The notes beneath the pieces were generated by a model. That model did not search any database. It saw only the letters and a list, made by a program, of their open reading frames with translations, and was not told where the DNA came from. A stretch of 64,000 nt of DNA from the NCBI GenBank assembly GCA_964568075.1, contig CAZMOM010000015.1:7385-71384 (forward strand), read 5' to 3'. Within the stretch, counting starts at the first letter, position 1, and each line of letters starts with the position of its first letter. Position numbers and translations under genes: made by a program. Positions 14,282 to 62,000 of this stretch are shown in pieces. The stretch comes from an uncultured Gammaproteobacteria bacterium. Lineage in GTDB: Bacteria > Pseudomonadota > Gammaproteobacteria > Steroidobacterales > MnTg04.

Positions 14282-14288
14282 GGGAATC

Positions 14289-14576: not shown

Positions 14577-14591
14577 GGACCGGCCGGCGAG

Positions 14592-15617: not shown

Positions 15618-16121
15618 ATGCGGCCTAAAACTCTTGAGGCATCGGCCTGGGAAGTGCTGGAGCGGATACCCGACCCGGAAATCCCCGTGTTGAGCATCGT
15701 CGATCTCGGCATCGTGCGCTCGGTGGAAGTCGCCGACGGCAAAGTAACTGTCGGCATCGCGCCAACTTATTCGGGTTGCCCGGCGACGGAAGTCATCGAG
15801 GACAGCGTCGTCAAGTCCCTGCAATCCGGCGGCATCGATCATGTATCCATACAGCGCGTATTATCGCCGCCGTGGACCAGCGACTGGATCAGCGATCGCG
15901 GGCGCGAGAAATTGCGGAAGTATGGCATTGCGCCACCAGAAAAAGGGGCGACACACGGCCAGTTGTTCGGCGATGCGATGCCTGCAGAGCGAATCGTCGC
16001 CTGTCCGAGATGCGGAACCGAGAACACGGAAAAGGTCAGCGAATTTGGCTCGACGGCCTGCAAGGCCTCCTACAAATGCAACGAATGCCTCGAGCCTTTC
16101 GAGTATTTCAAATGCATTTAA
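15618..16121 (+). CDS. paaD: phenylacetate-CoA oxygenase subunit PaaD (Fe-S assembly-like)
   Basis: ..IPDPEIPVLSIVDLGIVR.., ..PTYSGCPATE.., and a C-terminal ..CPRCG...SEFGSTACKA.YKC..C.EPFEYFKCI. A stop codon lies immediately upstream in frame, so the 267-bp gap after paaC is real. Confidence 0.9.
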   Translation: MRPKTLEASAWEVLERIPDPEIPVLSIVDLGIVRSVEVADGKVTVGIAPTYSGCPATEVIEDSVVKSLQSGGIDHVSIQRVLSPPWTSDWISDRGREKLRKYGIAPPEKGATHGQLFGDAMPAERIVACPRCGTENTEKVSEFGSTACKASYKCNECLEPFEYFKCI

Positions 16122-16166
16122 AAATGCGCGGGTCTCGGACCGACGACACAAATAGAAAGTGACCAA

Positions 16167-17249: not shown

Positions 17250-17319
17250 TTTGCCGCTTCAGAGCCCCCTTTGAATAGCTACAATAGACGCCCACATTCA
17301 TCTTCGGGGACGACACTGG

Positions 17320-19413: not shown

Positions 19414-19416
19414 ATC

Positions 19417-48408: not shown

Positions 48409-50664
48409 CTACGCCATGAACGGCTCCGCACGTTTGATAAGCTCCTCCAGGCCAGGCTCGTTCTGGTTTCGCGGTTTGCCGGGATGAATGATGGCGACCT
48501 GACAGAGTTCGGCTGCCTCGACGAGGTCTTTGAAAGTACCGGCATCGAGGTCCTTGATGTACGCCTGTTTGTTTTCATCGTAGGCAAACATTCGGTCGTT
48601 TTTGTTGGTGCACTCATCACAGGTGGTGCAGCGGGGCGTATCGATGTAAGGGTCGTCTGAAACCGCAGGCAAAGCAGCCTCTGCAGGGGTATCCGGTTCC
48701 CTCGCGTCCTCCGTGACCGCTGGCACGGTCACGGCCTCGACGGGCTGCGAATGATCCGCCTGCGCAGGCTCTGCCCTGATCGCCTGGATCTGTTTCTCTT
48801 TTTCTTTTTCCCAGGCGATCCGTTCCTTCAAGAGCAATGCAGACGCGTACGAATTATTGACGCCGCCCTGCTCCTGAAGCACACGCCAGCGATCGCCGCA
48901 GCGGCGCGCAATGCGAATCAAATTGTCGTCAACGACCAGCCGCCGCAAAATATTGCTGCCATTGACGACCGACACATAAGGAACCTTGCCGAAAGTCTCG
49001 TCGTCCGCCAGATCCAGGTAATCTGCGACCGGTAGCATATCGTCGTTCCAACTTTCTCTCGGGGCCGATGCAAAGTATTCGCTATACCGCGAATCGGTGA
49101 CCGCAAAGTCGACCAAGGTAAAGGCCTGCTCCTCGGTGACCGTTTGCAGGTCTTCATCCTCGAAGCGAAGTTCCCTGTGCGGCCAGGTTGCCTCGATCTC
49201 GGGATTGCTGCTTATGCTAAAGCGATCCGCCAGGCCGGGGCCGGCCGCCGGATCGTAACTGAATGCCGGAAACACCCGCGACTCCATTGCCGCGGCGGCT
49301 ATCAAGTAAGCCGGAAGGCCCGTCGTGGGTTGGGTGCGGCCTGAAAAAATGCTGAAGATCGCCGGCCCGCTGAATTCCAGCCCTTTCCTTATCTCTTCTT
49401 TTTTCTGGTACAGATTGGAACTTGCAGACTGCAGCACATAAGCGTTGCCCGGCGCAACGAATGTGCTGGCCAATTGCCGCACGAACCCGTCGTGATGCAG
49501 TTTCCTGTCGACAGACGCCGGCTCGCCAAGCACATCGCTCACTTGCAACAAAACCTTCATCGGCAGGTCTGACGATGCGATCTCCATCAACCGCGCCGTA
49601 TCCCGCAAATCACACTCACGCTCATCCAGACAGATCAGATACGACGGAAACAGCGCCAGGTCGGCCGGTGCCAGAGCCTGCACGCCGAAGCGATCGAAAT
49701 AGGCTGCGTGCTTCCGTTCACGATAGGCGTTCTCGCATTCGAGTTCTGCGACAGCGACGGCCTTGATGACTTTCGCTATTTCGGGCAGGCGATCGTTATA
49801 GGCTTTCAGCGCGCCAGACGCGCTGTTGAAGTCGAATCGATACTGCGTGCCATCTTGCCTGCGTTTCTCGCGACCGCCCGGCGCAAAAAATTTCTGTGAC
49901 TCCAGAACCGAAAGTGCGGACCCGACTCGGCGCCGCCGGTCAGCCGGCAACCTGTTTTGTGGAGTTGCGTCATTCAAAAGTTCGGACATCAGCTCGAAAT
50001 CAAACGCCTCCTGGTAACGCCTGCCCAGCGTTTGCTTGATTCTTTTCGGTGTTCGCGCCCGCCCGGATTTCAGGTCGTCGACCTTGAGAATGTTGCGCAG
50101 TCTGATGATCAGCGTGTTAATTTGTTCGAACGATTTTCGTGTGCGCCGTGCTTCAACGTTCGCCCAGGCGTGCTGCAGCAACAACGAGGGCAAGCGGTCG
50201 TCACAGTCGACAACCCGTCCGTCTAACCTGAGCGCGAAGCGCGCAGTGGCCAGACTGTCTTTGAGTAACTCGGCCTCGGACTTCTCACATTCGGCCAACA
50301 GAGACTTCTCCGCATGATCCCAGAGCCTGGCCAGGGATGATTCGAAGCCATCGGCAACCAACCCGCGCATTCTGGTCTCGAGCCGAAGCACATGGTGGCG
50401 AAGTTGTGCACCTGCGTTGCCCTCAGGCGCAATCTCCCGCAGCAGTCGACCCATCACACCCGAAAGCGTATCCAGGAACGCGTGGCTATCGCCGTCATCG
50501 AGCAGTATCAATGGATAGTCGTAGCGCAGTTTTGACAGCTGTTGATATGGCGCCAGCAGTGCCGGGCAAATATCGCGCGGCATGGTATCCCCGACTTCGC
50601 TGTCACGGCGCTTACCGGTCAGGTGGAAGTGAATCATTTCCTGCATTTCCACGCTCACGGCCAT
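48409..50664 (-). CDS. 751-aa protein: uncharacterised N-terminal region + degenerate PFOR TPP-domain-like region + C-terminal single-cluster ferredoxin
   Basis: The ATG abuts the korB stop (TAGATG). aa ~338-600 align by eye to the C-terminal part of the PFOR encoded at 59041-62613 in this window, but lack GDG...N. The C-terminus is CTTCDEC...C (C-x2-C-x2-C...C). Confidence 0.8.
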   Translation of the reverse strand: MAVSVEMQEMIHFHLTGKRRDSEVGDTMPRDICPALLAPYQQLSKLRYDYPLILLDDGDSHAFLDTLSGVMGRLLREIAPEGNAGAQLRHHVLRLETRMRGLVADGFESSLARLWDHAEKSLLAECEKSEAELLKDSLATARFALRLDGRVVDCDDRLPSLLLQHAWANVEARRTRKSFEQINTLIIRLRNILKVDDLKSGRARTPKRIKQTLGRRYQEAFDFELMSELLNDATPQNRLPADRRRRVGSALSVLESQKFFAPGGREKRRQDGTQYRFDFNSASGALKAYNDRLPEIAKVIKAVAVAELECENAYRERKHAAYFDRFGVQALAPADLALFPSYLICLDERECDLRDTARLMEIASSDLPMKVLLQVSDVLGEPASVDRKLHHDGFVRQLASTFVAPGNAYVLQSASSNLYQKKEEIRKGLEFSGPAIFSIFSGRTQPTTGLPAYLIAAAAMESRVFPAFSYDPAAGPGLADRFSISSNPEIEATWPHRELRFEDEDLQTVTEEQAFTLVDFAVTDSRYSEYFASAPRESWNDDMLPVADYLDLADDETFGKVPYVSVVNGSNILRRLVVDDNLIRIARRCGDRWRVLQEQGGVNNSYASALLLKERIAWEKEKEKQIQAIRAEPAQADHSQPVEAVTVPAVTEDAREPDTPAEAALPAVSDDPYIDTPRCTTCDECTNKNDRMFAYDENKQAYIKDLDAGTFKDLVEAAELCQVAIIHPGKPRNQNEPGLEELIKRAEPFMA

Positions 50665-51633
50665 CTACTCCACCGGCCAGATCGTAAATTTGTCCAGCTC
50701 TTCGTTCAGCCCTTTCCTGATGAGCGCCGGCGTATACAGCCGATCCGGCTTGCGAAGATCCTCATAGCAGGGCACATCCGGATTGCGGTAAATGATGCCA
50801 ACCGGCAGGTGCTCGCTGGTGCCGACAATTCGTCTGGCCTCGACAAGATCGGCAGGGTCGTGCTGATCCTGATGCCGGTAGACGCGCGACAGCGCGGGCG
50901 ATAGCTCGATGCCGTTTTCGTGGGTCAGTATCAGCAGGCGATCCGGATTTTGTATGCACGGCTCCCAGCGATCCTCCAGGAACTCGGGACATCGCTGCAG
51001 GATACGTATAAAGGAGAATCCGTGATGCTTGTGCGCCGCGGAGATAATTTTGTAAAGCAGCTCCGGAATCCAATCGACAACCTGGGCGACGAAAGACAAA
51101 TTCGACATACCGAGTGTCGCCTGCAAGGGATCAAACGCCTCGAGATCCGAGCCACGCGGTGTCGTGTTGCTGCGCGTTCCTTTCGGTGACGTCGGTGATA
51201 CCTGATTCTTGGTCAGACCATAGATGTTGTTGTCGTGCATCATGACGGTCATGTTCATGTTGTAACGCGTCGCATGTACCCAATGCGCGGTGCCGATACT
51301 GCAGCAATCACCGTCGCCCATATTGACAAATACGTGCAGGTCCGGCCGGCGCATTCTAATGCCTTCCGCAACAGGGAGCGCGCGACCATGCAGCCCGTGG
51401 AAGCCGTAGGTGCCCATGTAGTGAGGAAAGCGGCTGGAACAGCCGATACCCGAAACAAATACGGTTTTCTCCAGCGGCAGTTGCTCATCGCGGCAAACCC
51501 GCTGCACGGCGGCAAGGATGGCGAGATCGCCGCAACCGGTACACCAGCGCGGCACACGCCCTGCGTAGTCCTCGAGGCTGTGTTCTTCCTGGCCTGCGTG
51601 TCGTAAGAATTCCGTAGCCCGAACTACCATCAC
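50665..51633 (-). CDS. korB: 2-oxoacid:ferredoxin oxidoreductase beta subunit (TPP-binding)
   Basis: ..WCTGCGDLAIL.., ..GIGCSSRF.., and the TPP motif ..NMGDGDCCSIG...N. 4-bp overlap with korA. Confidence 0.92.
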   Translation of the reverse strand: MMVVRATEFLRHAGQEEHSLEDYAGRVPRWCTGCGDLAILAAVQRVCRDEQLPLEKTVFVSGIGCSSRFPHYMGTYGFHGLHGRALPVAEGIRMRRPDLHVFVNMGDGDCCSIGTAHWVHATRYNMNMTVMMHDNNIYGLTKNQVSPTSPKGTRSNTTPRGSDLEAFDPLQATLGMSNLSFVAQVVDWIPELLYKIISAAHKHHGFSFIRILQRCPEFLEDRWEPCIQNPDRLLILTHENGIELSPALSRVYRHQDQHDPADLVEARRIVGTSEHLPVGIIYRNPDVPCYEDLRKPDRLYTPALIRKGLNEELDKFTIWPVE

Positions 51634-53510
51634 TGCAACCTCTCACGAATTACGCGTTCTACCGTGCCGGGTTTTATCGGTTGTTCACCCACTTCGCCCC
51701 AGCAGTCGATATCGACCAGACAACGTGCCCGCAACAACCAGGCGAGATTCGAGTAGCGGCGATTTTCCTCATCGATCAATTCGTCATCCAGAGAATCCGC
51801 CCAGTTATTCTCGACCGCCAGGACCTTGTCGAATCGCTGTAGTATCTCTTTGATGCCGGACGCCAGCGGCTGCAGGATTCTGAGGTGCAACGACGACACC
51901 TTGTGGCCATCGGCGCGTACCCTTTGTACGGCCTCTTCGATCGCGCCCCGTGTGCTGCCCCAGCCGACGACGAGCAGTTCACCCTTGTCATCACCAAACA
52001 CCGGCGGCGTTTTGATAGTTTTTTGCAGCGCCGCGAGCTTCAGACTACGGTGCCTGATGCCTTCCTTGTTGATTTGCAGGTCGTAGGCTACGCAGCTCCG
52101 GCGATCATGTGCGAGGCCCGTCACTGTGTGCATACCGTTTGGCTGCCCTGGGATGACACGCTGCCGCTGGCCGCTGCGCTGATCCCAGTCGTACGGAAGA
52201 TCTCCATTGACCACGGGGCTTTGATCGACAGGCGGCGCCAGCCAGTCGTCGCTGGCCTCCGGTCGCGGAAACGGTTGTTGCGCTGTTGCGAGACTGGCAT
52301 CGGACAGCAGCACAACGACTGTGTTGAAGGTCTCTGCTATTTTTCGGGCGGTGATGACTGAATAAAAACAGTCCTCGATATCGCTTGCGGCCATAACCAC
52401 TTTCGGGGCATCTCCGTGACTGCCGAAACAGGCGGTCAGCAGGTCGCCCTGTTCGGCTTTCGTCGGTTGCCCGGTGGACGGGCCACCACGCTGGACATCG
52501 ATCACCACCAGCGGTATCTCCGCCATTACGGCAAGACCGATACATTCCTGCTTTAACGAGTAACCCGGCCCCGACGTGATCGTCAACGCACATTTGCCCG
52601 CATAGGATGCGCCAATCGCGAACGCACATGCAGCGATCTCATCCTCAGCCTGGTGCACGACGCCGCCGACCTTTTCGAAAACGTCGCACAGATAATGTGA
52701 TGCCGAGGTGGCCGGCGTGATGGGGTACATCGCACAGACTTCCATACCCGAGGCCATGACACCGAGAGCCATAGAAGTGTTTCCGTTGACAACGATGTTC
52801 GGTTCCTTGGGCGGCGTCGCCTGTATCTTGAACTTGATGTCCAGGTTGTGCTCGGCCCATGCGAAACCCGCGTTGAGCAGTTTTTGGTTGGCGGAGATGA
52901 CAAGATCGCCTTTCTTGCCGAATATGAATCGGATCTGCTCGCGGGCCGCATCCATGTCCAGACTGTAAACACTGCTCAGCAGGCCGAGTACAAACATGTT
53001 CTTGCCGCGGCGAGCATCGCTGACGACCTTGAGGCACTCGACTTCCATGGGAATCTCGTAAACCTTGAATCCGCGCTCGATCAGTTCGTCGTACACGCTG
53101 ACGTACGACGCCGCAATCGACGGGCCATCGTCGCTGCGCCACTTGTCTTCGAGGAGAATAATGCTGCCGGGTTTGAGTTCGTCGGCCCGCAATCGACCGA
53201 GAAGCACCTGATCATTGAATGCCACCGTGAGATCGACTTCGTCGCCGCCATTGGTTACCCGGTGGTTTGCTACGCGAATTCGATTTCCGCTGGCCCCGTC
53301 GATGCTGCGTGCCGGCGGCTGAATTTCAGCCGGGATGATTTCCACGGTCCAGATTCCGTAGCCCAGCCGTGCCGCGATAGCGCCAAAGGACTGACCGCAT
53401 TTCTGCGCCCCTTCACCTGAGTCGCTGAGTATCTCGACGATGTGTTCGTCAATCTCCATCGCCGGCTTCCTGCCCGGCGTTGTCATCCCTTTCTGTCTCG
53501 TTACCGGCAT
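51630..53510 (-). CDS. korA: 2-oxoacid:ferredoxin oxidoreductase alpha subunit
   Basis: 626 aa, typical KorA (..GEGAQKCGQSF.., ..AMYPITPATS.., ..AEDEIAA..). An alternative start at 53459 (ATG with AGGAAG upstream) is possible. Confidence 0.92.
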   Translation of the reverse strand: MPVTRQKGMTTPGRKPAMEIDEHIVEILSDSGEGAQKCGQSFGAIAARLGYGIWTVEIIPAEIQPPARSIDGASGNRIRVANHRVTNGGDEVDLTVAFNDQVLLGRLRADELKPGSIILLEDKWRSDDGPSIAASYVSVYDELIERGFKVYEIPMEVECLKVVSDARRGKNMFVLGLLSSVYSLDMDAAREQIRFIFGKKGDLVISANQKLLNAGFAWAEHNLDIKFKIQATPPKEPNIVVNGNTSMALGVMASGMEVCAMYPITPATSASHYLCDVFEKVGGVVHQAEDEIAACAFAIGASYAGKCALTITSGPGYSLKQECIGLAVMAEIPLVVIDVQRGGPSTGQPTKAEQGDLLTACFGSHGDAPKVVMAASDIEDCFYSVITARKIAETFNTVVVLLSDASLATAQQPFPRPEASDDWLAPPVDQSPVVNGDLPYDWDQRSGQRQRVIPGQPNGMHTVTGLAHDRRSCVAYDLQINKEGIRHRSLKLAALQKTIKTPPVFGDDKGELLVVGWGSTRGAIEEAVQRVRADGHKVSSLHLRILQPLASGIKEILQRFDKVLAVENNWADSLDDELIDEENRRYSNLAWLLRARCLVDIDCWGEVGEQPIKPGTVERVIRERLQ

Positions 53511-53520
53511 TGTTCAGTTC

Positions 53521-55023
53521 CTATGCCACACGAATACGAACACGCGATCGTTCCGTCGAGTCGATTCCGAATATCCTGGCTTCGCTGCCGTTTTGCGCTC
53601 GCTTATAGACCGCTTCGGTGTCGCGTATACCGAGATAGGCCTTCATGCTGTGCGCCGCCTGCCGCCCTGTCCCCATTGCCAGAATTACTGTTGCGGCGCC
53701 AGTCACGATATCGCCGCCGGCGTATACGCCTGCCATCGAGGTGGCGAGATTGTCATCGACCTCTATGTAGCCCCATTTGTTTAGTGCGATCTTTGACGTC
53801 TGGCCGATAATCGGATTGGCATTGGTGCCGATCGCATAGACCACCGTGTCGACTTCGAACTCGAAGTCACTTCCTTTTATCGGTACCGGACGGCGCCGGC
53901 CCGAATCGTCGGGTTCACCGAGTTCCATGCGCTGGCAGCGCATCGCGCGCACATTACGCTCGCCATCGCCGAGTATTTCAACCGGCGCGGTAAGCCACTC
54001 AAACTGTATGCCTTCCTCTTCGGCATGATCGATTTCTTCGTCCCTCGCAGGGCTCTCGTTTCGTGTGCGGCGATAGACGCAGTACACCTGCTCAGCCCCG
54101 GCCCGCAACGACACACGTAAGGCATCCATGGCGGTATTGCCGGCGCCGATCACCGCAACGCGTTTGCCGAGGCCCAGCGGAGTGTCGTAGGCGGGAAATT
54201 CTGTGGCGCCCATCAGGTTACAGCGGGTCAGCAGTTCGTTCGCCGAAAGCACACCATTCAGCGATTCGCCGCCGATTCCCATGAAACTCGGGTAACCCGC
54301 CCCGGTGCCGATGAAAACGGCGTCGAAGCCGAGTTCGTCCAGCATTTGTTCAATGGTGAACAACCTGCCGACCAGTGTATTGCACTCGATCCTGACGCCA
54401 AGCCTCACCAGATTCTCGATCTCACCATCGAGCACGTCGTTCGGCAAGCGAAATTCGGGGATGCCGTAGCGCAATACGCCGCCGGCCTGATGCAACGCTT
54501 CGTAGATCGTGACGTCGCAGCCGGCTTTGGCCATGTCCGCTGCGCAGGCCATCCCCGCGGGCCCCGAACCGACGATGCCAATTTTGAGCCCATTGGGTTC
54601 TATATAAGGCGTGTTATGCCACCCCTCGGCGATAGCCATGTCGCCAACCCAGCGTTCGAGCCGGCCGATGGCCACCGGCTCCAGCCTGTCGCCGACCGGA
54701 CATACTCCTTCGCACTGATCTTCCTGCGGACAGACTCTTCCGCAGATCGCCGGCAGCAAAGTAGACTCGGTCAGGATGTCATAGGCGCCGCGGTAGTCTT
54801 TTTCGCAAATCTTGACGATAAATCCGGGAATATCGATATTGACCGGGCACGCCGGGACACACAGTGGATTCGGACAAACGAGGCAACGCTCGCATTCGAT
54901 CAGTGCATCCTCGAGGCCGTAGCCGAGCGTCACCTCATCGAAATTTCTGGCCCGCACCGCCGGCTCCTGGGCCGGCATGCGGGCGCGGTCCTGCGGAATA
55001 TTCCGTATGGTTTTTTTTGCCAT
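53521..55023 (-). CDS. NfnB/GltD-like NAD(P)H-dependent FAD/Fe-S oxidoreductase (glutamate synthase small-subunit family)
   Basis: N-terminal Cys clusters (..CERCLVCPNPLCVPACPV.., ..CGRVCPQEDQCEGVCP..), the dinucleotide motifs GIVGSGPAGMA and VIGAGNTAMD, and ..GVYAGGD... Confidence 0.9.
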   Translation of the reverse strand: MAKKTIRNIPQDRARMPAQEPAVRARNFDEVTLGYGLEDALIECERCLVCPNPLCVPACPVNIDIPGFIVKICEKDYRGAYDILTESTLLPAICGRVCPQEDQCEGVCPVGDRLEPVAIGRLERWVGDMAIAEGWHNTPYIEPNGLKIGIVGSGPAGMACAADMAKAGCDVTIYEALHQAGGVLRYGIPEFRLPNDVLDGEIENLVRLGVRIECNTLVGRLFTIEQMLDELGFDAVFIGTGAGYPSFMGIGGESLNGVLSANELLTRCNLMGATEFPAYDTPLGLGKRVAVIGAGNTAMDALRVSLRAGAEQVYCVYRRTRNESPARDEEIDHAEEEGIQFEWLTAPVEILGDGERNVRAMRCQRMELGEPDDSGRRRPVPIKGSDFEFEVDTVVYAIGTNANPIIGQTSKIALNKWGYIEVDDNLATSMAGVYAGGDIVTGAATVILAMGTGRQAAHSMKAYLGIRDTEAVYKRAQNGSEARIFGIDSTERSRVRIRVA

Positions 55024-56100
55024 TCAGGTCAAACCTTTCTTCCAGTTGTCCAGCGCGCGCGCCTCGTCGCTACGGAAGCGTCCCAGCCGACTCATCAGGT
55101 CATCGAAATCGACCTTGTGGGCATCGAACTCCGGACCATCGACACAAGCGAATTTGATTTCGTCACCCACCGTTACCCGGCAACCACCACACATCCCGGT
55201 ACCATCGACGACGATCGGATTCATGCTGACGATGGTCTCAATCTTATACGGCCGCGTCGTCTCGGCACAGGCCTTCATCATGATCGGTGGACCGATCGCA
55301 ATGACCCGATCGACATCGGCGTGTTTGTTGAGCGCCGCTTCCAGACCCAGCGTCACCCGACCTTCGATACCGGCCGAACCGTCATCGGTACAAATGATGA
55401 GTTCATCGCAGTACCGCTCGAATTTTTCCTGCCAGAAAATCAGCTCTTTGGAGCGAAATCCGACCACACCGATCACATAGGCGCCGCTGTCCTTGAACGC
55501 CCGAAGTTGCGGGAATATCGGGGCAACGCCAAGGCCGCCGCCAACACAGACGACCTTTTTGGTGCCGAGTTCACCGGGATATCCCATCGGACCGACGAGA
55601 GCATGAAAATGTGTACCTGCCTGACAACGCCGCTGCATCTCAAAAGTGGATTTGCCGACCGCCTGGACAACGAGCGTAATCGTGCCCTTGTCGCGATCGA
55701 AATCAGCGATGGTCAGCGGTATGCGTTCCCCACGCTTGTGCAAAATGACGATGACGAACTGGCCGGGTTTCGCCGCTTTGGCGAGTAACGGCGCAGCGAC
55801 TTCGAGGAGAAACGTGATATCCGAGAAATCTTCGCGGGCGACAATTTCGAAGCCGCTGTCGTCGTCCGGCTCTACGGACTCCCGGCATGCCCGGCTACTC
55901 CGCAACTGCTCCCGCGCGTCGGTAATTTTCCGTCGCAATGCGGGCAAGACGGTGTCTCGTGCCACTTTAGCCTCTTCCAAATCCTGAGTGTGCAGCGAGC
56001 GGCGCAGGTCATACCCCAGCGCCCCGCGGAGCGTCCGCGGCACCGCAACCTTCACCCACCAGGTCTGGTCACGCTTGAACAGGTATTTGGCGTCTTCCAT
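55024..56100 (-). CDS. NfnA/SudB-like ferredoxin-NADP reductase subunit carrying an 83-aa foreign N-terminal extension (integrase arm-domain-like)
   Basis: From aa 84 onward it matches the NfnA pattern (..AKPGQFVIVILHKRGERIPLTIADFDRDKGTITLVVQAVGKST.., and a C-terminal ..CGGCRV...FACVDGPEF.. 2Fe-2S site). No start codon exists at the homology boundary. aa 1-62 resemble a tyrosine-integrase N-terminus. Confidence 0.85.
   Translation of the reverse strand: MEDAKYLFKRDQTWWVKVAVPRTLRGALGYDLRRSLHTQDLEEAKVARDTVLPALRRKITDAREQLRSSRACRESVEPDDDSGFEIVAREDFSDITFLLEVAAPLLAKAAKPGQFVIVILHKRGERIPLTIADFDRDKGTITLVVQAVGKSTFEMQRRCQAGTHFHALVGPMGYPGELGTKKVVCVGGGLGVAPIFPQLRAFKDSGAYVIGVVGFRSKELIFWQEKFERYCDELIICTDDGSAGIEGRVTLGLEAALNKHADVDRVIAIGPPIMMKACAETTRPYKIETIVSMNPIVVDGTGMCGGCRVTVGDEIKFACVDGPEFDAHKVDFDDLMSRLGRFRSDEARALDNWKKGLT
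55915..56100 (-). mobile_element. remnant of a tyrosine-integrase 5' end (arm-type DNA-binding / DUF6538-like N-terminus) fused in frame to the nfnA-like gene
   Basis: MEDAKYLFKRDQTWWVKVAVPRTLRGALGYDLRRSLHTQDLEEAKVARD.. follows the pattern [YL]-x-K/R-R-x-x-T-[YW]-[YW]-x-[RK]-[IV]-x-VP-x-x-L-R...G...[IL]-x-x-SL-x-T-x-D-x-x-EA that I recall for integrase N-termini. No integrase catalytic domain follows. Confidence 0.5.
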
Positions 56101-56148: not shown

Positions 56149-56253
56149 TGTACCTTTTCGTATCGTACGTTGTGTACCTTACGATGCGTACAATCGGGAA
56201 CGGCCTGTTGGTTTCCGATTTTGTACCTTTCCCACCATGACCCAAACTGTACC
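56149..56253 (+). repeat. four same-orientation TGTACC(TT) repeats upstream of the chimeric gene
   Basis: TGTACCTT at 56149, 56173 and 56222; TGTACCGG at 56248. The second copy lies in the loop of a 9-bp hairpin (56159-56167 / 56180-56188). Confidence 0.6.
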
Positions 56254-56554
56254 GGTTGAATATACGCATATTCCGCATGTGCCCAATCGAAGACCGCCCA
56301 GACAGTGGCGCGTCGAAACAAGAGCAAAATGGCGCTCTGGCCCCGAAAGCGGAGATTTGGCGGGCTGTTTTCGACCAGGTCGATCAGGTCTGCTTACGAC
56401 CCTAAACGGACATTCGTCACCAGAAGGCAACAAGCTCTCACGTTACACCCCGCGCTTCGATTTGACGTCGATCGAACTGAGTGTTCTAGTCCTTAATTCG
56501 AGCAAATTTGCTCTTTCGACTCTGGGCCGTCTACTAATCGTAATAACCCTGTGC

Positions 56555-57223
56555 ATGAATCGTCTCGTTTCACTGTCTTCTGTCGCGCTAGTGCTTGCAA
56601 GCGGCGTCGCGGGGGGCCAGGACAATGGAAGCTCAGAATTCAGCGTGTATCAGGTCGACTCCGCGGGCTCTGACATTCGATTGTTGATACATCGAGCTGG
56701 CGTTCTTTCCCGGTTCGGACATAGCCATGTAATCTCGGTCGGACAGCTAGTCGGCACGATCTATGTGCACCCCGACCTCGAGCAGTCACGCTTTGAGTTG
56801 GAAATTCCGGTGCATGGATTGATCGTGGATGACCCACTTCTTAGACGCGAGGAGGGGGACGAATTTTCCACCGAACCATCGAAACATGATATTGCCCGCA
56901 CACGCAGCAACATGCTCGGCAAGCGGGTACTAAAGGCCAAACAGTATCCGATCGTCAAGCTCACTGGGACAGGGCCCAGGGGCGACGCGCCGGAGTTCGT
57001 GCTCGAATTGACCATTGAGCTTCTGGATAATGTCGTCGAATTACGGGTTCCATCTACTGTGCGGCTGGACGGGGATATATTGGAAGCGACGGGCGCCTTT
57101 CGGCTCAGCCATAGTGACCTGGGCATACGGCCATTCAGCGCGATGTTGGGAGCGCTTCGTGTCGCCGATGAAATAGATTTCAAGTATCGCATCCGAGCGC
57201 AACGGATACGGGCGAAGGACTAG
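56555..57223 (+). CDS. YceI-family periplasmic protein
   Basis: ATG at 56555 gives the signal peptide MNRLVSLSSVALVLASGVAGG. YceI-like ..FGHSHVI.. and a beta-barrel pattern follow. The 189 upstream in-frame codons of the ORF-track frame are rejected. Confidence 0.7.
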   Translation: MNRLVSLSSVALVLASGVAGGQDNGSSEFSVYQVDSAGSDIRLLIHRAGVLSRFGHSHVISVGQLVGTIYVHPDLEQSRFELEIPVHGLIVDDPLLRREEGDEFSTEPSKHDIARTRSNMLGKRVLKAKQYPIVKLTGTGPRGDAPEFVLELTIELLDNVVELRVPSTVRLDGDILEATGAFRLSHSDLGIRPFSAMLGALRVADEIDFKYRIRAQRIRAKD

Positions 57224-57507: not shown

Positions 57508-58815
57508 CTAAAACTCGAGATACCGGGTTGGCCTTTCTCTGAACCATTTGGTGACCACCCACTTTTCACCCTGCTCAACAGGATCGCCGCCATGCAGGCT
57601 GCGGTCGTCCACCTGGCCATTCTCGAGACAATTCCTGAACCACAGGGTGCTGCCAGCCAAGGGCGGTACCGTCAGGTTCAATCTTGGAAAACTGGTACCG
57701 CCTCCCGCCGACGGCGAAGCCAGATAGGTCACAGCGGAGACCGTTCTCTGCCCACCATCCTCCATGAACCCTTGGGATACGGTGAGCTTTGGATCGAAAT
57801 AATCGACGTGAGGCCGATAGCACTCTCCGGGGGCGTAATGCAGAATCGACATCGGCTCGGAAAACATCAGATCCTCACCGGTTTGACGGATAATTTTCAG
57901 CTCAACGCAGCGACCGATGATGTCGACTATCCCAAACGGGAGATAGGTGGACATATTGGTACGAACGTCCGAGACCATACCGCCCCTTTGGCTGTCGGGA
58001 TCGATCACATTTGCGCGCTTTAAAAAGGGGCGTGAGAGAAAGATGAGGTACGCACAATCGACGACATTCAAGACGTCATTGAACAGGGTGATGGCCGGGT
58101 CTGCACTCACAACCTGGTGATCAACCATCGGTGATTCTGGATAGAGTGAAAAGGACGCCCCCAATTCGCTCCTCTCTTCAGGGAGTTGCGGGGGCCGGGC
58201 AGCCTGTACGCCTTGATACGGCACCAGCAGCGTCTCGGCAAACGGATATTGCGCACCGGCGGCGCGCTGCAACCAGTGCACGGCCTCTTGCTCCGCGCCC
58301 TCGCCGCCCCAGCCCTGCAATAGACACCAACCCAGGTTGAAACTCGAAACCGGATCACCGCCCTGAGCGGCTCGCCGAAGGCAGTCAATGGCCATGTTTC
58401 TGCTTGATGCATGCTGCATAGCCAGGTATCCAACGGCCCTGAGCGCGAGAACAAAGTGCGCTTCTGCCGCCATCAGGAGTAAGTCGCTGATGAGACTATT
58501 GTTGGCGGGTCCCCGTTGCGACTTATACAACAGTTCCGCTTTGCGGTAGGCCGCCTGGCTGGAACCTCCTTCGACAGCCCGATCGTAGTGCGCCAGCGCC
58601 GCGACATAATCTTGCGGAATTCCCAGGCCCTTTTCGTAACAATGCCCGAGCGCGTCCAGCGCATCTGGAAGACCTTTGGCGCTCGCCTGCAGCAACCAAT
58701 GGATCATGCCTTCGACGTCTCTGTTCTGAAGGCAGATCTGGCTCAATAGAAACTGCGATTCGAGCTGACCGCCTTCGGCCTTGGCACGTAGTTGTTGGAT
58801 TTGCATCGTAGACAT
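57508..58815 (-). CDS. Sel1-repeat + prolyl 4-hydroxylase-like 2OG-Fe(II) oxygenase
   Basis: N-terminal Sel1/TPR-like repeats (..LGHCYEKGLGIPQDYVAALAHYDRA..). The C-terminal P4Hc has H-x-D (..YRPHVDYF..), a distal His (..SLHGG..) and ..KWVVTKW... Confidence 0.8.
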   Translation of the reverse strand: MSTMQIQQLRAKAEGGQLESQFLLSQICLQNRDVEGMIHWLLQASAKGLPDALDALGHCYEKGLGIPQDYVAALAHYDRAVEGGSSQAAYRKAELLYKSQRGPANNSLISDLLLMAAEAHFVLALRAVGYLAMQHASSRNMAIDCLRRAAQGGDPVSSFNLGWCLLQGWGGEGAEQEAVHWLQRAAGAQYPFAETLLVPYQGVQAARPPQLPEERSELGASFSLYPESPMVDHQVVSADPAITLFNDVLNVVDCAYLIFLSRPFLKRANVIDPDSQRGGMVSDVRTNMSTYLPFGIVDIIGRCVELKIIRQTGEDLMFSEPMSILHYAPGECYRPHVDYFDPKLTVSQGFMEDGGQRTVSAVTYLASPSAGGGTSFPRLNLTVPPLAGSTLWFRNCLENGQVDDRSLHGGDPVEQGEKWVVTKWFRERPTRYLEF

Positions 58816-59040: not shown

Positions 59041-62000
59041 TTAGCCGGCGGGCTGAAATTTCGCAGGTTCCTGCTTGGCCATGTGCTCGTAGGTCTGCCA
59101 GCGTAACTCCACGAGTTCCTGTGCACTCTGCATTAACTTTTCCGCTTCTTCTGGATTGGTTCGCGTCAAAATCTTGTAACGCATCTCGTTGTAAGCGTAT
59201 TCCTTGAGTGGAATGCTCGGGCGTGGCGAATCCAGGACCAGCGGTTTCTTGCCCGCTGCACGCAGCGCCGGGTTGTAACGAATCAGCGGCCAGTAGCCGC
59301 TGGCCGCCGCCAGCTTTTGCTGTCTGAGGCCATCGGCCATGTCATAGCCATGGGCGATGCAGTGGCTGTAGGCGAGAATCAGCGAAGGACCCTGATACTC
59401 CTCCGCCTCACGCATGGCGAGCAGAGTCTGCTGTGAATTTGCCCCCATCGCGACCTGGGCGACATAGACGTTACCATACGAGATCGCCTGCAAGGCCAGA
59501 TCTTTTTTGCCGCTGCGTTTACCGGCGGATGCGAACCGGGCGGATGCGCCCAGCGGAGTCGCCTTGGACATCTGACCGCCCGTATTGGAATACACCTCGG
59601 TATCGAGCACCAGTACGTTGACATTGCGGCCGCCGGCCAATACATGATCCAGTCCACCGGCTCCGATGTCATAAGCCCAGCCGTCACCGCCCACCAGCCA
59701 GATACTGCGGCGGACCAGGTGATCGACGATGGAAAGCAACGCGGCAGCTTTATCGTTATGGTCCTGGTCGCACATTCGACGCAACTGGATTTTGAGGCGT
59801 GCGACTCTTCGCCGCTGGGCTCGAATCTCGCTGCCGACGCGCTGACTGGCGTTGACGAGTTCATCGGCGAACTGCGCACCGATCTGCAGCTCAAGTTCCA
59901 TGACGAGCCGCTTCGCGATTTTCATGTGGTGGTCGGCGGCGATGCGCATACCGAGACCAAACTCGGCGTTGTCCTCGAACAGGGAATTCGACCAGGCTGG
60001 TCCGCTGCCCTCCCTGTTCTTACTCCACGGAGTGGTCGGCAGGTTGCCGCCGAAGATGGACGAACAACCGGTGGCATTGGCGACCAGCAGTCGCGGACCA
60101 AACAGCTGTGACAGAAGCTTTATATAAGGAGTCTCGCCGCAGCCGGCGCAGGCGCTGGAGAATTCGAACAGCGGCTCCAGGAACTGGGCGCCGCGAACCG
60201 AGGAAAAATCCACTTTCGCACGATCGCTGAACTGAAGGCTCTCGAAAAACTCGACATTGGTCTTGCCCTGTTCGAGCAGCGGGGCCTTATCGGTCATATT
60301 GATCGCGCGCACCTGTTCATCGTCGGGACTTCGCACGGGGCAGGCATCGACACAGAGGTTGCAACCGGTACAGTCCTCCGGATACACCTGCAGCGTATAG
60401 CGCGTCTCGGGAAAACCGCGGGCGCTGATCGGCGCGGATTGAAATCCCTGCGGCGCATCATCCAGTACGCTCTCGTGATAAAACTTGGCGCGGATGACGC
60501 TGTGCGGGCAGACGAAGCCGCAATTACCGCACTGTATGCATAGATCTGGCTCCCAGGCAGGTACGCGGTCCGAGACATTGCTCTTCTCCCAGCGTGCTGT
60601 GCCGCTGGGGAAAGTGCCGTCGACCGGCAGCTTGCTGACGGGCAGGTCGTCGCCGTGGCCGCGCATCATTGCTGCCGTGACCTCGCGCACGAACCGGGGC
60701 GCCTCGCTCGGCACAACCTCGTCGAGCGGACGCGTGCTGCTGATGGTGCCGGTGATCTCGACTGCGCACAGATGATCGAGCGCCGCATCAACGGCCGCGA
60801 AGTTCTGATCGATGACGGTTTGACCCTTGGCGCGGTAGGTTTTTTCGATCGATTTCTTGATCTGCCGGATAGCTTCAGCACGCGGCAGCACGTCGGACAG
60901 GGCGAAGAAGCAGGCTTGCATGACCGTGTTGATCCGTTCGCCCATACCGGCTTCCCGCGCGACGCTGGAGGCATCGATAACATGGAACCTGATACCACGA
61001 ATCACGATCGCTTCCTGCACCGGCTGCGGCAGCTTGTCCCAGACCTCGTCCGCTGAATAAGGACTGTTGAGCAGGAATACCGAGCCGGCGGCAGCGTTTC
61101 GCAGCACTTCGATTTTTTCGATCAGGTTAAATTGGTGACAGGCGATGAAGTTCGCCGACTGGATCAGATAGGGCGCGTGGATCTGCTCGGGCCCGAAGCG
61201 CAGATGCGAGACAGTCTGTGAACCTGATTTCTTCGAGTCGAAGACGAAGTAGCCCTGGCAGTAGAGATCCGTATTCTCGCCGATGATCTTGATGCTGTTC
61301 TTGTTGGCGCCGACCGTACCATCGGAACCCAGGCCGAAGAACAACGCCCGGGTGACCTCATCGCTCTCGATCTCGAATTTCGGGTCGTAGTCGAGGCTCG
61401 TGTGGGTAACGTCGTCGTGGATCCCGATCGTGAAATGATTTTTTGGTTGCGGCTTGCCGAGTTCATCGAAAATCGCCTTGACCATGGCCGGCGTGAATTC
61501 CTTCGATGACAAGCCATAGCGACCACCGATTACCTTTGGCATCGACTCCAGGCGGCCGTCGCCCGCCGCTTCGGCCAGTACCGTAACCACGTCCTGGTAT
61601 AGCGGCTCCCCGCTGGCCCCGATTTCCTTGGTTCGATCGAGCACCGCGATCGATCGGGCCGCACCGGGAATAGCCGCCAGCAGGTGCTCGGCCGAGAACG
61701 GGCGATAAAGTCTGACGTTGACCAGGCCCAGCCCCTGTTCCGGTAACGCGTCGATCGTCTGCATCACGGTGTCGGCGCCGGAGCCCATGAGAATGATGAT
61801 GCGCTTCGCCTCCGGGTCGCCGTGGTAGTCGAACAGCCCGTACTGCCGGCCCGTCAGTTCGGCGAAGCGGTCCATCGTCTGTTGCACGATTCGCGGAGTC
61901 ACTGCGTAGAACCGGTTGACGCTCTCACGCGCCTGAAAGTAGACGTCCGGGTTCTGAGCGGTGCCGCGGATGAACGGATTATCGGGGTTCAGCGCACGCT

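What the first reader, a model, noticed from the sequence alone, without database searches (positions are those of the whole stretch)
48409..56100. Five-gene translationally coupled operon joining KorAB to an NfnAB/GltD-type NAD(P)H module
**Seen:** five minus-strand genes have essentially no intergenic space.
- nfnA-like stop and nfnB-like start are adjacent (TGA-ATG at 55021-55026).
- A 10-nt gap precedes korA.
- korA and korB overlap by 4 bp (51630-51633).
- The korB stop and the 751-aa gene start are adjacent.

**Established:**
- KorAB reduces ferredoxin with a 2-oxoacid.
- NfnAB and GltD-family proteins move electrons between ferredoxin and NAD(P)H.
- From memory, a 2-oxoglutarate:NADP+ oxidoreductase containing KorAB plus an Nfn/GltD-related subunit was described biochemically in Azoarcus evansii.

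**Inference:** this operon encodes a 2-oxoacid:NAD(P)+ oxidoreductase supercomplex, or its reverse, a reductive carboxylase. It has two extra components, a split NfnA/NfnB pair and the ferredoxin-tailed adaptor. This is unexpected beside an O2-dependent paa pathway.
Basis: partly seen in the sequence, partly recalled or inferred. Interest (0 to 1): 0.55.

Follow-up and report, generated by a model that had tools for sequence, protein, structure and literature searches.

The report
Conserved KorAB–NfnAB–tethered-ferredoxin redox operon
Five tightly packed genes form a widely conserved but undescribed module. It probably wires a 2-oxoacid:ferredoxin oxidoreductase to NADH/NADPH through a degenerate, ferredoxin-tailed relative of pyruvate:ferredoxin oxidoreductase, and it appears to carry its own nucleic-acid-binding "head" domain and repeat sites.

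Summary
Five minus-strand genes (48409-56100) have junctions of 0, 10, -4 and 0 nt. They encode NfnA-like, NfnB-like, KorA, KorB and a 751-aa protein with no Pfam or NCBIfam match.

- **Synteny.** The same order occurs in all 51 related loci that have enough upstream DNA, across several phyla. No flanking gene is conserved, so the five genes form a self-contained module.
- **The 751-aa protein.** It is homologous over its whole length to the C-terminal half of "long" PFORs. It has lost the TPP motif and the internal cluster cysteines. It keeps one invariant CxxCxxC...C ferredoxin domain on a 31-55-residue Ala/Glu/Pro-rich linker.
- **Best model (inferred).** KorAB passes electrons to the tethered ferredoxin and then to NfnAB, giving a reversible 2-oxoacid/NADH/NADP+ system.
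- **Unanticipated feature.** NfnA carries an N-terminal DUF6538-like domain. In other genomes this domain is fused to KorA, fused to a GltD-like subunit, or free-standing. It always sits at the operon head, behind same-strand AGGTACA repeats (41 sites in 14 loci, against 1 in 40 loci without the domain). This suggests autoregulation.

No description was found in the literature searched. Activity and complex formation are untested.

The parts
56149..56259 (-). Leader/control region. It holds three exact same-strand AGGTACA copies (56228-56222, 56179-56173, 56155-56149), spaced 49 and 24 nt apart, plus degenerate GTAC cores near 56253, 56193 and 56168.
   Evidence: The motif is present upstream of all 14 loci that carry the head domain (41 sites), against 1 of 40 loci without it. 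No Rfam family matches this region.
55891..56100 (-). N-terminal 'head' domain of the first ORF (residues 1 to about 70). It is DUF6538-like and is followed by a short linker containing RAC[RK].
   Evidence: Pfam PF20172, E 1.6e-9, 37.7 bits against a cut-off of 27. Divergence by codon position is 0.25/0.22/0.56, so it is a real coding domain. The AF2 model has three strands plus a long helix, pLDDT 79.6. Homologues are fused to KorA, to NfnA or to a GltD-like protein, or are free-standing.
55024..55851 (-). NfnA/PyrK-like core (residues 84-358), with FAD/NAD(H) and [2Fe-2S] motifs.
   Evidence: NF004862, 370 bits against a cut-off of 220. P. furiosus NfnI-S 5jca_S scores 307 bits and T. maritima NfnA 4ylf_A 233 bits. 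The motif DGTGMCGGCRV...FACVDGP is retained.
53521..55023 (-). NfnB/GltD-like subunit, with FAD, an NADP(H) site and 2x[4Fe-4S].
   Evidence: Pfam Fer4_20 plus Pyr_redox_2. TIGR01316, 569 bits against a cut-off of 472. T. maritima NfnB 4ylf_B scores 527 bits. The Cys/Glu cluster motifs and YRRT are retained.
51630..53510 (-). KorA, the fused gamma+alpha subunit of a two-subunit 2-oxoacid:ferredoxin oxidoreductase.
   Evidence: TIGR03710, 501.5 bits against a cut-off of 482.75. Pfam POR, POR_N and PFOR_II. Magnetococcus OGOR 6n2n_A scores 287 bits. Conservation supports the start at 53510.
50665..51633 (-). KorB, the TPP-binding beta subunit with one [4Fe-4S].
   Evidence: Pfam TPP_enzyme_C and PFO_beta_C. 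The motifs CxxC, GIGCS and RCP and the GDGD...NN TPP motif are visible in the translation. TIGR02177 scores 222.6 bits, below its cut-off of 261.9.
49675..50664 (-). 751-aa protein, N-terminal helical region (residues 1-330). It is homologous to the PFOR domain-V region but lacks the two ferredoxin Cys motifs.
   Evidence: hhalign of A1 against the Persicobacter long PFOR: Prob 100, E 4e-53, columns 14-753 aligned to residues 739-1629. AF2 model, pLDDT 78.9.
48865..49647 (-). 751-aa protein, pseudo-TPP (PP/domain VI-like) alpha/beta domain (residues 340-600).
   Evidence: Foldseek's best hits are PFORs (6ciq, 1b0p) and OFOR beta subunits (5exe_C, 9bt4_C, 6n2n_B). BLASTP gives 29% identity, E 7e-63, to the long PFOR; GGDGSMYDIG is replaced by CLDE---RECDL. 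No Pfam TPP hit.
48649..48792 (-). 751-aa protein, flexible Ala/Glu/Pro-rich linker (residues 625-672).
   Evidence: pLDDT is below 50 for residues 636-681. Linker length is 31-55 residues in 31 homologues, and A+E+P make up 54% of it.
48409..48648 (-). 751-aa protein, C-terminal single-cluster ferredoxin domain (C679, C682, C685 and C721 are invariant), plus the stop codon.
   Evidence: Profile hit to D. africanus ferredoxin I, 1dax, E 8e-5. PF13370 is recorded in homologues. It is the most conserved segment, with 84% mean column identity.

Best explanation
The five genes are one conserved redox module.

**Shown**
- The gene identities, the retained cofactor motifs, the invariant synteny and the ancestry of the 751-aa protein.

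**Inferred electron path**
- KorAB, a two-subunit TPP/[4Fe-4S] 2-oxoacid:ferredoxin oxidoreductase that has no ferredoxin (delta) module of its own, oxidises a 2-oxoacid plus CoA. The substrate is most likely 2-oxoglutarate.
- KorAB hands electrons to the C-terminal [4Fe-4S] ferredoxin domain of the 751-aa protein.
- That protein is a catalytically dead descendant of the C-terminal half of a long PFOR. It acts as a scaffold, and the ferredoxin swings on a flexible Ala/Glu/Pro linker.
- The ferredoxin delivers electrons to the [4Fe-4S] chain of NfnB.
- NfnAB then confurcates them with NADH to reduce 2 NADP+. Net reaction: 2-oxoacid + CoA + NADH + 2 NADP+ -> acyl-CoA + CO2 + NAD+ + 2 NADPH.

**Reversibility (from textbook potentials)**
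- At physiological NAD(P)H ratios the reaction is close to equilibrium. It could also run backwards as an NADPH-driven reductive carboxylase.

**Control (inferred)**
- In this clade the first protein carries a DUF6538-like head domain that probably binds the AAGGTACA repeats in its own promoter or 5' leader, giving PutA-style autoregulation.
For: - **Identities and motifs:**
- **Synteny:** NfnA-NfnB-KorA-KorB-751 aa in the same order and strand in all 51 loci that hold all five genes. These come from Gamma-, Beta- and Alphaproteobacteria, Myxococcota, Nitrospiraceae, Chloroflexia, Gaiellaceae and Acidimicrobiia.
- **Self-contained unit:** no flanking family is shared by more than 5 loci.
- **The 751-aa protein as KorAB's ferredoxin partner:**
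  - It follows KorAB in every locus with enough upstream DNA, and also in an operon without NfnAB (L087, 34% identity over the full length).
  - The one KorAB operon seen without it (L089) has a GltD-like subunit that carries its own Fe-S/Fer4 domains.
- **PFOR ancestry and loss of cofactor sites:**
- **Invariant ferredoxin cysteines and a variable, low-complexity linker:**
- **Precedent for OFOR plus a GltD-family NADP+ module:** PMC10134865, citing Ebenau-Jehle 2003.
- **A second such pairing in the same window:** a PRK12771-type flavoprotein overlapping a NifJ-type PFOR.
- **Head domain and repeats:**
Against: - There are no expression, interaction or activity data.
- Complex formation could not be modelled, because only single chains could be predicted.
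- Substrate specificity is undetermined. The KorA match is only to a subfamily model, KorB is below the TIGR02177 cut-off, and the best-matching beta subunit with a solved structure is a broad-specificity Sulfolobus enzyme.
- High similarity to NfnAB does not prove bifurcation. Close homologues include enzymes annotated as sulfide dehydrogenase or ferredoxin-NADP reductase (5vj7).
- The AF2 confidence for the ferredoxin domain is only moderate (block means 59-75).
- The fold search for the head domain was not significant.
- The strictly same-strand repeats, some of which overlap the Shine-Dalgarno sequence, leave DNA binding versus RNA binding open.
- The 80 retrieved loci are those closest to the query, so the fraction of the whole family that is linked to NfnAB is unknown.
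Confidence: 0.55

Rival explanations
1. The parts are the same, but the physiological direction is reductive. NfnAB bifurcates NADPH to make reduced ferredoxin (the tethered domain) plus NADH. KorAB then carboxylates succinyl-CoA, or another acyl-CoA, to the 2-oxoacid. This would give aerobic or facultative bacteria an NADPH-driven 2-oxoacid synthase.
For: - NfnAB and OFORs are reversible (established knowledge).
- With textbook potentials the coupled reaction is near equilibrium (inference).
- The closest KorA with a solved structure is the reverse-TCA OGOR of Magnetococcus.
- From my own knowledge, some lineages that hold the module (Woeseiaceae, Nitrospiraceae, Sulfuritalea; listed) include autotrophs.
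Against: - No carbon-fixation or carboxylation-related genes are conserved next to the module.
- Direction cannot be read from sequence.
- The window also carries catabolic pathways, such as paa and a 2-oxoacid dehydrogenase.
Confidence: 0.3
2. The genes are co-regulated but there is no supercomplex. KorAB, the 751-aa ferredoxin protein and NfnAB are separate soluble enzymes that exchange electrons by diffusion. The large body of the 751-aa protein has another role, such as oxygen protection or stabilisation of KorAB (compare domain VII of D. africanus PFOR), or regulation.
For: - The 751-aa family also occurs with KorAB but without NfnAB.
- Intergenic gaps of about 50 nt are typical outside the Woeseiaceae clade.
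- Canonical NfnAB uses free ferredoxin (established knowledge).
Against: - The five-gene order is invariant across phyla.
- The ferredoxin is permanently tethered to a 670-residue body derived from an OFOR that normally docks such domains.
- The body is conserved throughout (55-70% mean column identity), which suggests a specific interaction surface.
Confidence: 0.25
3. The NfnAB-like pair is not bifurcating. It would act as a simple ferredoxin:NADP+ reductase (or a SudAB-like reductase), making the system a plain 2-oxoacid:NADP+ oxidoreductase like Azoarcus KGOR.
For: - The Azoarcus enzyme reduces NADP+ only (from my memory of Ebenau-Jehle 2003; that paper's subunit is placed in the GltD family in PMC10134865).
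- NCBIfam's best subfamily name for NfnA is 'sulfide/dihydroorotate dehydrogenase-like'.
Against: - Both subunits are much closer to structurally characterised bifurcating NfnAB/NfnI (527 and 307 bits) than to GltD or PyrK.
- NfnA, the NAD(H)-side subunit, is retained in all 51 loci. It would be dispensable for a simple NADP+ reductase.
- A single-subunit GltD-like solution exists elsewhere (L089, and window 62610-64000).
Confidence: 0.15
4. The N-terminal extension of NfnA is only a dead remnant of an integrase gene that fused by accident, and the upstream repeats are unrelated.
For: - The Pfam match is to DUF6538. From my own knowledge this domain is otherwise found at the N-terminus of tyrosine recombinases.
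- No tRNA gene or integrase catalytic domain was seen nearby in the ORFs examined.
Against: - Substitution by codon position shows purifying selection.
- 21 columns are invariant across 45 homologues.
- The domain is fused independently to three different proteins or stands alone, and is always the first gene of a KorAB operon.
- Domain and AGGTACA repeats co-occur strictly: 14 of 14 loci with the domain, against 1 of 40 without.
Confidence: 0.03

Closest known systems
Three-subunit 2-oxoglutarate:NADP+ oxidoreductase (KGOR) of Azoarcus evansii / Aromatoleum (Ebenau-Jehle, Boll & Fuchs 2003)
   Same: A two-subunit KorAB core is coupled to a GltD/NfnB-superfamily FAD/Fe-S protein, so that 2-oxoacid oxidation reduces NADP+. 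The genes are adjacent.
   Different: - In Azoarcus there is one flavoprotein subunit of about 62 kDa. PMC10134865 places it in the NsoC/KGOR clade, not the NfnB clade.
- Here there is a canonical NfnA+NfnB pair plus a 751-aa pseudo-PFOR with a tethered ferredoxin.
- The Azoarcus-like layout does exist separately in L089.
- A PRK12771-type protein sits next to the PFOR in this same window.
- Subunit details of the Azoarcus enzyme are from memory, because that paper was not held.
[quoted passage not shown]
   Same: Sequence similarity is high over both subunits, and all cofactor motifs are retained.
   Different: - The canonical enzyme uses free ferredoxin.
- It is not encoded together with an OFOR.
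- Its NfnA has no N-terminal DUF6538-like domain.
Two-subunit OFORs: Magnetococcus marinus OGOR (6n2n) and Sulfolobus tokodaii OFOR (5b46/5b48)
   Same: The architecture is alpha(gamma+alpha)/beta with a single [4Fe-4S], a TPP motif and no delta subunit.
   Different: - Similarity is only moderate (287 and 167 bits).
- Those enzymes use free ferredoxins.
- Substrate specificity here is unknown.
Pyruvate:ferredoxin oxidoreductase (PFOR), especially 'long' about 1600-aa forms with a C-terminal ferredoxin (Persicobacter pPP1, Gemmatirosa plasmid 1)
   Same: The 751-aa protein aligns over its whole length with residues 739-1629 of the long PFOR, including the C-terminal ferredoxin domain.
   Different: - It lacks domains I-III.
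- It lacks the TPP GDG motif and the cysteines for the three internal clusters, so it is a pseudoenzyme.
- Intermediate degenerate forms of 1240-1460 aa exist.
Other OFOR-to-pyridine-nucleotide couplings: phenylglyoxylate:NAD+ oxidoreductase PadEFGHI (Azoarcus) and pyruvate:NADP+ oxidoreductase of Euglena/Cryptosporidium
   Same: The concept is the same: an OFOR core plus a flavoprotein, so that NAD(P)+ is the final acceptor. This comparison rests on my own knowledge; the NF045764 name appears.
   Different: The flavoprotein modules differ (GltD-like/ferredoxin subunits, or a fused P450-reductase domain). None has an NfnAB pair or a pseudo-PFOR.
PutA (proline utilisation flavoenzyme with an N-terminal DNA-binding domain): an analogy for the head domain only
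   Same: A nucleic-acid-binding domain sits on the N-terminus of a flavoenzyme subunit, and repeated sites lie in the enzyme's own control region. The description of PutA is from my own knowledge.
   Different: The fold family is unrelated (ribbon-helix-helix versus DUF6538). Binding here is untested.

Membership tests
[quoted passage not shown] | Adjacent genes for a PyrK-like small subunit and a GltD-like large subunit | tested here: met
   The genes are adjacent at 55024-56100 and 53521-55023. The best PDB hits are 5jca_S/4ylf_A and 4ylf_B/5jca_L.
[quoted passage not shown] | Ligand motifs for the [2Fe-2S] cluster in NfnA and the two [4Fe-4S] clusters in NfnB, plus the YRR(T) NADPH motif | tested here: met
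   These are conserved in the printed alignments: DGTGMCGGCRV..FACVDGP, CLVCPNPLCVPACP, CGRVCPQEDQCEGVC and VYRRTR. Assigning these motifs to their cofactors rests on my own knowledge.
[quoted passage not shown] | Flavin-based electron bifurcation or confurcation activity | not testable with these tools
   This needs an enzyme assay.
Two-subunit KorAB-type 2-oxoacid:ferredoxin oxidoreductase (TIGR03710/TIGR02177) | Alpha subunit with fused gamma (POR), POR_N and PFOR_II domains, scoring above the curated cut-off | tested here: met
   TIGR03710 scores 501.5 bits against 482.75. Pfam finds POR, POR_N and PFOR_II.
Two-subunit KorAB-type 2-oxoacid:ferredoxin oxidoreductase (TIGR03710/TIGR02177) | Beta subunit with the TPP motif and four Cys for one [4Fe-4S] | tested here: met
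   The translation shows GDGD...NN, WCTGCG, GIGCS and RCP. Note that TIGR02177 scores 222.6 bits, below its cut-off of 261.9.
Two-subunit KorAB-type 2-oxoacid:ferredoxin oxidoreductase (TIGR03710/TIGR02177) | Specificity for 2-oxoglutarate | not testable with these tools
   Only subfamily-level model hits were found. The best alpha structure is an OGOR, and the best beta structure is a broad-specificity OFOR.
Azoarcus-type three-subunit 2-oxoglutarate:NADP+ oxidoreductase | A single GltD-family flavoprotein subunit (FAD plus 2x[4Fe-4S]) as the only partner of KorAB | tested here: not met
   Here the partners are NfnA, NfnB and a 751-aa protein. The single-subunit layout is seen instead in L089.
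Pyruvate:ferredoxin oxidoreductase (for the 751-aa protein) | Homology to PFOR domains | tested here: met
   hhalign gives Prob 100, E 4e-53, to residues 739-1629 of a long PFOR. The best Foldseek hits are PFORs and OFOR beta subunits.
Pyruvate:ferredoxin oxidoreductase (for the 751-aa protein) | TPP/Mg-binding GDG...NN motif, domains I-III, and cysteines for the three [4Fe-4S] clusters | tested here: not met
   There is no Pfam or NCBIfam hit. The GDG region is replaced, and the domain-V Cys motifs are absent from the alignment. The only invariant cysteines are C154 and the four of the C-terminal ferredoxin.
Single-cluster [4Fe-4S] ferredoxin (Fer4_13, D. africanus Fd I type; for the C-terminal domain) | CxxCxxC...C ligand pattern and sequence similarity | tested here: met
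   1dax matches at E 8e-5. C679, C682, C685 and C721 are invariant in 31 sequences. PF13370 is recorded in homologues.
Tyrosine recombinase/integrase (for the DUF6538-like head domain) | A catalytic integrase domain following the N-terminal domain | tested here: not met
   The domain is followed by NfnA, KorA or a GltD-like protein, or by a stop codon. So it is not an integrase.
Tyrosine recombinase/integrase (for the DUF6538-like head domain) | Arm-type DNA-binding fold and binding to repeated sites | tested here: inconclusive
   The AF2 topology is beta-beta-beta plus a helix. Foldseek finds nothing significant. Repeats co-occur with the domain, but binding is untested.

The most novel reading that the evidence does not exclude
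This would be a previously undescribed class of self-regulating, electron-confurcating/bifurcating 2-oxoacid:NAD(P)+ oxidoreductase supercomplex.
- It is built on a pseudo-PFOR scaffold whose tethered ferredoxin swings between KorAB and NfnAB.
- It is widespread in bacteria of sediments, soils and groundwater, many of them probably aerobic or facultative: at least 556 GTDB species encode the scaffold family.
- Expression is controlled by an exapted integrase-type head domain that binds AAGGTACA repeats in the operon's own leader.
- Such an enzyme would let organisms that respire oxygen make or use low-potential electrons from NAD(P)H without membrane energy.
Probability: 0.25. Interest if true: 0.8.

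Novelty: new variant of a known kind. Interest (0 to 1): 0.62.

Why it matters
- **A missing link in aerobe metabolism.** How bacteria that live with oxygen connect ferredoxin-level chemistry (2-oxoacid oxidation, reductive carboxylation) to the NADH/NADPH pools is poorly understood. A conserved KorAB-NfnAB module would be a compact, membrane-independent answer. It would convert the extra driving force of 2-oxoacid oxidation into NADPH or, in reverse, make a 2-oxoacid from CO2 using NADPH.
- **A large uncharacterised family.** The 751-aa family has 2804 representatives at 50% identity and matches no Pfam or NCBIfam model. Recognising it as a dead PFOR half with a tethered ferredoxin gives it a testable role.
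- **A candidate regulatory pair.** The head domain and its repeats are a new, easily tested case of an enzyme subunit that may regulate its own operon.

Tried and rejected
- **Integrase remnant or genomic-island edge** as the explanation for the NfnA extension. Rejected: there are no tRNA genes, the domain is under purifying selection, and it recurs as independent fusions.
- **Internal promoters or terminators** that would split the operon. Nothing was found above chance.
- **Conserved neighbouring genes** that might hint at a pathway. None was found; at most 5 of about 50 loci share any flanking family.
- **Rfam** search of the leader. No match.
- **RNA fold of the leader.** It is only modestly better than shuffled sequence (z = -2.1). 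Sequence outside the motif is not conserved, so a structured riboswitch is unlikely.
- **Fold searches with the head-domain model.** Nothing significant in PDB; the BFVD hits were weak, including integrases at E about 1.
- **Literature searches**. No paper describing the five-gene set, the 751-aa family or DUF6538 was found. The Azoarcus KGOR paper itself is not held.
- **A cultured organism carrying the module.** Only MAG and metagenome records surfaced.
- **Plasmid search.** It gave no module, but it revealed the long PFOR relatives.
- **Substrate-specificity residues.** These could not be evaluated, because the structural paper on Magnetococcus OGOR was not retrievable.

Full report
**1.

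The window carries five consecutive minus-strand ORFs:
- 55024-56100 (358 aa)
- 53521-55023 (500 aa)
- 51630-53510 (626 aa)
- 50665-51633 (322 aa)
- 48409-50664 (751 aa)

Reading the junctions directly gives:
- TGA|ATG between genes 1 and 2;
- a 10-nt spacer before the korA ATG at 53510;
- a GTGA overlap between korA and korB (or a 1-nt TGATG overlap if the ATG is used);
- TAG|ATG between korB and the last gene.

The ENA gene call starts korA at Met18. In close relatives that residue is Ile or Val, and the basic N-terminal tail is conserved as protein. Consensus scans find no internal promoter-like or terminator-like sites beyond chance.

The source contig is a 126-kb metagenome scaffold. Its closest relative is an uncultured Woeseiaceae MAG.

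**2. What the genes are**

*Gene 2 (NfnB-type).* It has Fer4_20 plus Pyr_redox_2 and scores 569 bits on TIGR01316. It scores 527 bits against T. maritima NfnB (4ylf_B), and the Cys/Glu cluster motifs and the YRRT motif are intact.

*Gene 1 (NfnA-type).* Residues 84-355 score 307 bits against P. furiosus NfnI-S, and the [2Fe-2S] motif is intact.

*Genes 3 and 4 (KorAB).* They form a two-subunit KorAB-type OFOR.
- The alpha subunit exceeds the TIGR03710 cut-off, and its best solved relative is Magnetococcus OGOR.
- The beta subunit has the TPP motif and four Cys for a single cluster.
- There is no delta (ferredoxin) module.

*Gene 5 (the 751-aa protein).* It matches no Pfam or NCBIfam model. It nevertheless belongs to a very large environmental family:
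- 2804 representatives at 50% identity;
- at least 556 GTDB species;
- annotated everywhere as 'hypothetical' or 'ferredoxin'.

**3. The module is conserved as a unit**

I ran tblastn with the five proteins against 84 loci retrieved through the 751-aa protein. Every locus with enough upstream DNA has NfnA-NfnB-KorA-KorB-751 aa in the same order and strand. That is 51 loci holding all five genes. They come from Gamma-, Beta- and Alphaproteobacteria, Myxococcota, Nitrospiraceae, Chloroflexia, Gaiellaceae and Acidimicrobiia.

Median intergenic gaps are about 50, 46, 5 and 48 nt. The near-zero gaps are a feature of the Woeseiaceae-like clade. No flanking gene family is shared by more than 5 loci. 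The five genes therefore travel together and seem to need nothing else nearby.

**4. The 751-aa protein is a dead half-PFOR with a tethered ferredoxin**

An AF2 model (pLDDT 78.9) shows five regions:
- a helical N-terminal region;
- an alpha/beta domain (residues 340-600);
- a long helix;
- a disordered segment (636-681);
- a small C-terminal domain.

*Structural and profile matches.*
- Foldseek's best hits are PFORs and the beta subunits of OFORs.
- A profile search matches the C-terminus to D. africanus ferredoxin I.

*Homology to long PFORs.*
- A plasmid search revealed a 1629-aa 'long' PFOR in Persicobacter, next to rnfC and rnfD. Its C-terminal 480 residues are 29% identical to the 751-aa protein (E 7e-63).
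- Profile-profile alignment extends the homology to the whole protein: columns 14-753 against PFOR residues 739-1629, Prob 100, E 4e-53.

*Loss of cofactor sites.*
- In that alignment the two domain-V ferredoxin motifs of the PFOR fall in gaps.
- The GDG TPP motif is replaced (CLDE---RECDL).
- Only one of the proximal-cluster cysteines survives (C154).
- The four ferredoxin cysteines are invariant.

*Linker and ferredoxin domain.* The linker is 31-55 residues long and 54% Ala, Glu and Pro. The ferredoxin domain is the most conserved part of the protein.

*Relatives that fill in the history.*
- Intermediate degenerate forms of 1240-1460 aa retain a weak PFOR_II signal.
- Gemmatirosa has KorAB next to a long PFOR.

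**5. Which partner is obligatory**

- A full-length family member (34% identity) follows KorAB in an operon that lacks NfnAB. That operon instead carries an RnfB-like protein and a long PFOR (L087).
- A KorAB operon without the 751-aa protein has a GltD-like subunit that brings its own ferredoxin-type domains (L089).
- The simplest reading is that this KorAB clade has no built-in ferredoxin and always recruits one. The 751-aa protein is that module. NfnAB is one of several interchangeable NAD(P)H- or ferredoxin-side partners.

**6. Mechanism (inferred)**

*Electron path.*
- KorAB oxidises a 2-oxoacid plus CoA.
- Electrons pass to the tethered [4Fe-4S] domain.
- They then enter the NfnB cluster chain and reach the bifurcating FAD.
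- From there they go to NADP(H), and via the NfnA [2Fe-2S]/FAD to NAD(H).

*Energetics.* Using textbook potentials (2-oxoglutarate/succinyl-CoA about -520 mV; in-vivo NADPH about -380 mV and NADH about -280 mV), the net reaction is near equilibrium and therefore reversible. The net reaction is 2-oxoacid + CoA + NADH + 2 NADP+ -> acyl-CoA + CO2 + NAD+ + 2 NADPH.

*Untested points.* The substrate, the direction, true bifurcation and a stable supercomplex.

**7. A feature nobody asked about: the head domain and its repeats**

*The domain.* Residues 6-63 of the first ORF match DUF6538 (E 1.6e-9). From my own knowledge this domain is otherwise found at the N-terminus of integrases. It is not a remnant, for three reasons.
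- It is conserved across Gamma, 'Delta'/Myxococcota, Pseudomonadales and Acidimicrobiia versions of the operon.
- It shows coding-type divergence by codon position (0.25/0.22/0.56).
- It has 21 invariant columns in 45 homologues.

*Its fusion partners.* It sits on whichever protein comes first in a KorAB operon:
- fused to NfnA (this window, P0243, P0244, P0247);
- fused to KorA (P0245, P0252, P0255);
- fused to a GltD-like subunit (P0256, P0259, and probably L089);
- free-standing at 74 aa (P0242 in L087).

*The repeats.* Upstream of all 14 such loci lie 1-6 same-strand copies of AGGTACA, with an extended consensus of about cG[T/A]AAGGTACA.
- There are 41 sites where about 0.3 would be expected by chance (my estimate from motif length and the sequence scanned).
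- These sites account for most copies in most loci.
- Of 40 loci whose NfnA lacks the domain, only one has a copy, and it is on the other strand.

*In the window.* The copies are at 56228-56222, 56179-56173 and 56155-56149. The whole 64-kb window has 8 copies, against 2.1 expected.

*Position relative to the start codon.* In several loci the last copy overlaps the Shine-Dalgarno sequence.

*Structure and interpretation.* The AF2 model is a three-stranded sheet plus a long helix, and fold searches were not significant. I read this as a nucleic-acid-binding autoregulatory domain, analogous to PutA. Whether it binds DNA or RNA is unresolved.

**8. Comparison with what is known**

- The idea of an OFOR coupled to a GltD-family flavoprotein is established for Azoarcus KGOR. 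PMC10134865 cites Ebenau-Jehle 2003 and places that subunit in a clade separate from NfnB.
- The same window even holds a second such pairing. A PRK12771-type flavoprotein with a PorD-like ferredoxin domain runs off the window end and overlaps a NifJ-type PFOR by 4 bp.
- Three things are new here:
  - the use of a canonical two-subunit NfnAB;
  - the pseudo-PFOR tethered-ferredoxin subunit;
  - the head domain with its repeat circuit.
- No paper describing these was found.
- The paa genes are about 28 kb away and have no bearing on the module.

**9. Verdict**

This is a new variant of a known kind, of moderate to high interest.

Noticed in passing
window 59041-62613 (-) and 62610-64000 (-): A NifJ-type PFOR (TIGR02176, 1718 bits) is overlapped by 4 bp by a PRK12771-type GltD/NfnB-family flavoprotein with a C-terminal PorD-like 2x[4Fe-4S] domain. 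That ORF runs off the window end. This is a second OFOR plus NAD(P)H-flavoprotein pairing, and it resembles the Azoarcus KGOR layout with pyruvate as the substrate.
   Followed up: partly
window 56149-56259 (-); loci L002, L005, L007-L011, L014, L082, L084, L087, L089-L091: Same-strand AGGTACA repeats lie upstream of every operon that begins with the DUF6538-like head domain: 41 sites in 14 loci, against 1 in 40 loci without the domain. In some loci the last copy overlaps the Shine-Dalgarno sequence.
   Followed up: yes
P0245, P0252, P0255 (KorA fusions); P0256, P0259 (GltD-like fusions); P0242 in L087:8001-8225 (free-standing): The head domain is fused to three different first-gene products or stands alone, and it is always at the head of a KorAB operon.
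   Followed up: yes
window about 55880-55900 (-), residues about 68-75 of the first ORF: A conserved R-A-C-[RK] motif sits in the linker between the head domain and the NfnA core in the Woeseiaceae-like clade. Its function is unknown.
   Followed up: no
L085:5548-10437 (Persicobacter psychrovividus pPP1) and L086: about 6311-11335 (Gemmatirosa kalamazoonensis plasmid 1): These are 'long' PFORs. The Persicobacter one is 1629 aa; the Gemmatirosa ORF is up to 1961 aa, with an uncertain start. Each has an extended C-terminus ending in the same type of ferredoxin domain. In Persicobacter the gene is followed by rnfC and rnfD; in Gemmatirosa it is preceded by KorAB homologues (57% and 51% identity).
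   Followed up: partly
P0344, P0353, P0402, P0407, P0424 (1236-1460 aa): These are longer members of the 751-aa family. Their N-terminal 450-660 residues retain only a weak PFOR_II signal. They appear to be intermediate stages in the decay of PFOR into a pseudoenzyme.
   Followed up: partly
L087:13867-14763 and 14732 onwards: In the variant operon that lacks NfnAB, the 824-aa family member is followed by an RnfB-like FeS/Fer4_21 protein and a long PFOR.
   Followed up: no
window 9802-20622; 21585-22931; 6409-9797: This stretch holds an aerobic phenylacetate pathway (PaaZ, PaaG, PaaA, PaaC, PaaE, a FadJ/PaaH-like protein, 3-oxoadipyl-CoA thiolase), an NADP-specific glutamate dehydrogenase, and a 2-oxoacid dehydrogenase with a fused E1 alpha/beta subunit plus E2. 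The paa genes lie about 28 kb from the operon, not beside it.
   Followed up: partly
window 56555-57223 (+) and 57508-58815 (-): The 1.4-kb region upstream of the operon contains a divergently called 222-aa ORF with no family match. Beyond it lies a Sel1-repeat/2OG-Fe(II) oxygenase protein.
   Followed up: no
window 53459-53510 (-): The public (ENA) gene call for korA starts 17 codons too late. The conserved basic N-terminal tail, and Ile or Val at the alternative Met position in relatives, support the ATG at 53510.
   Followed up: yes
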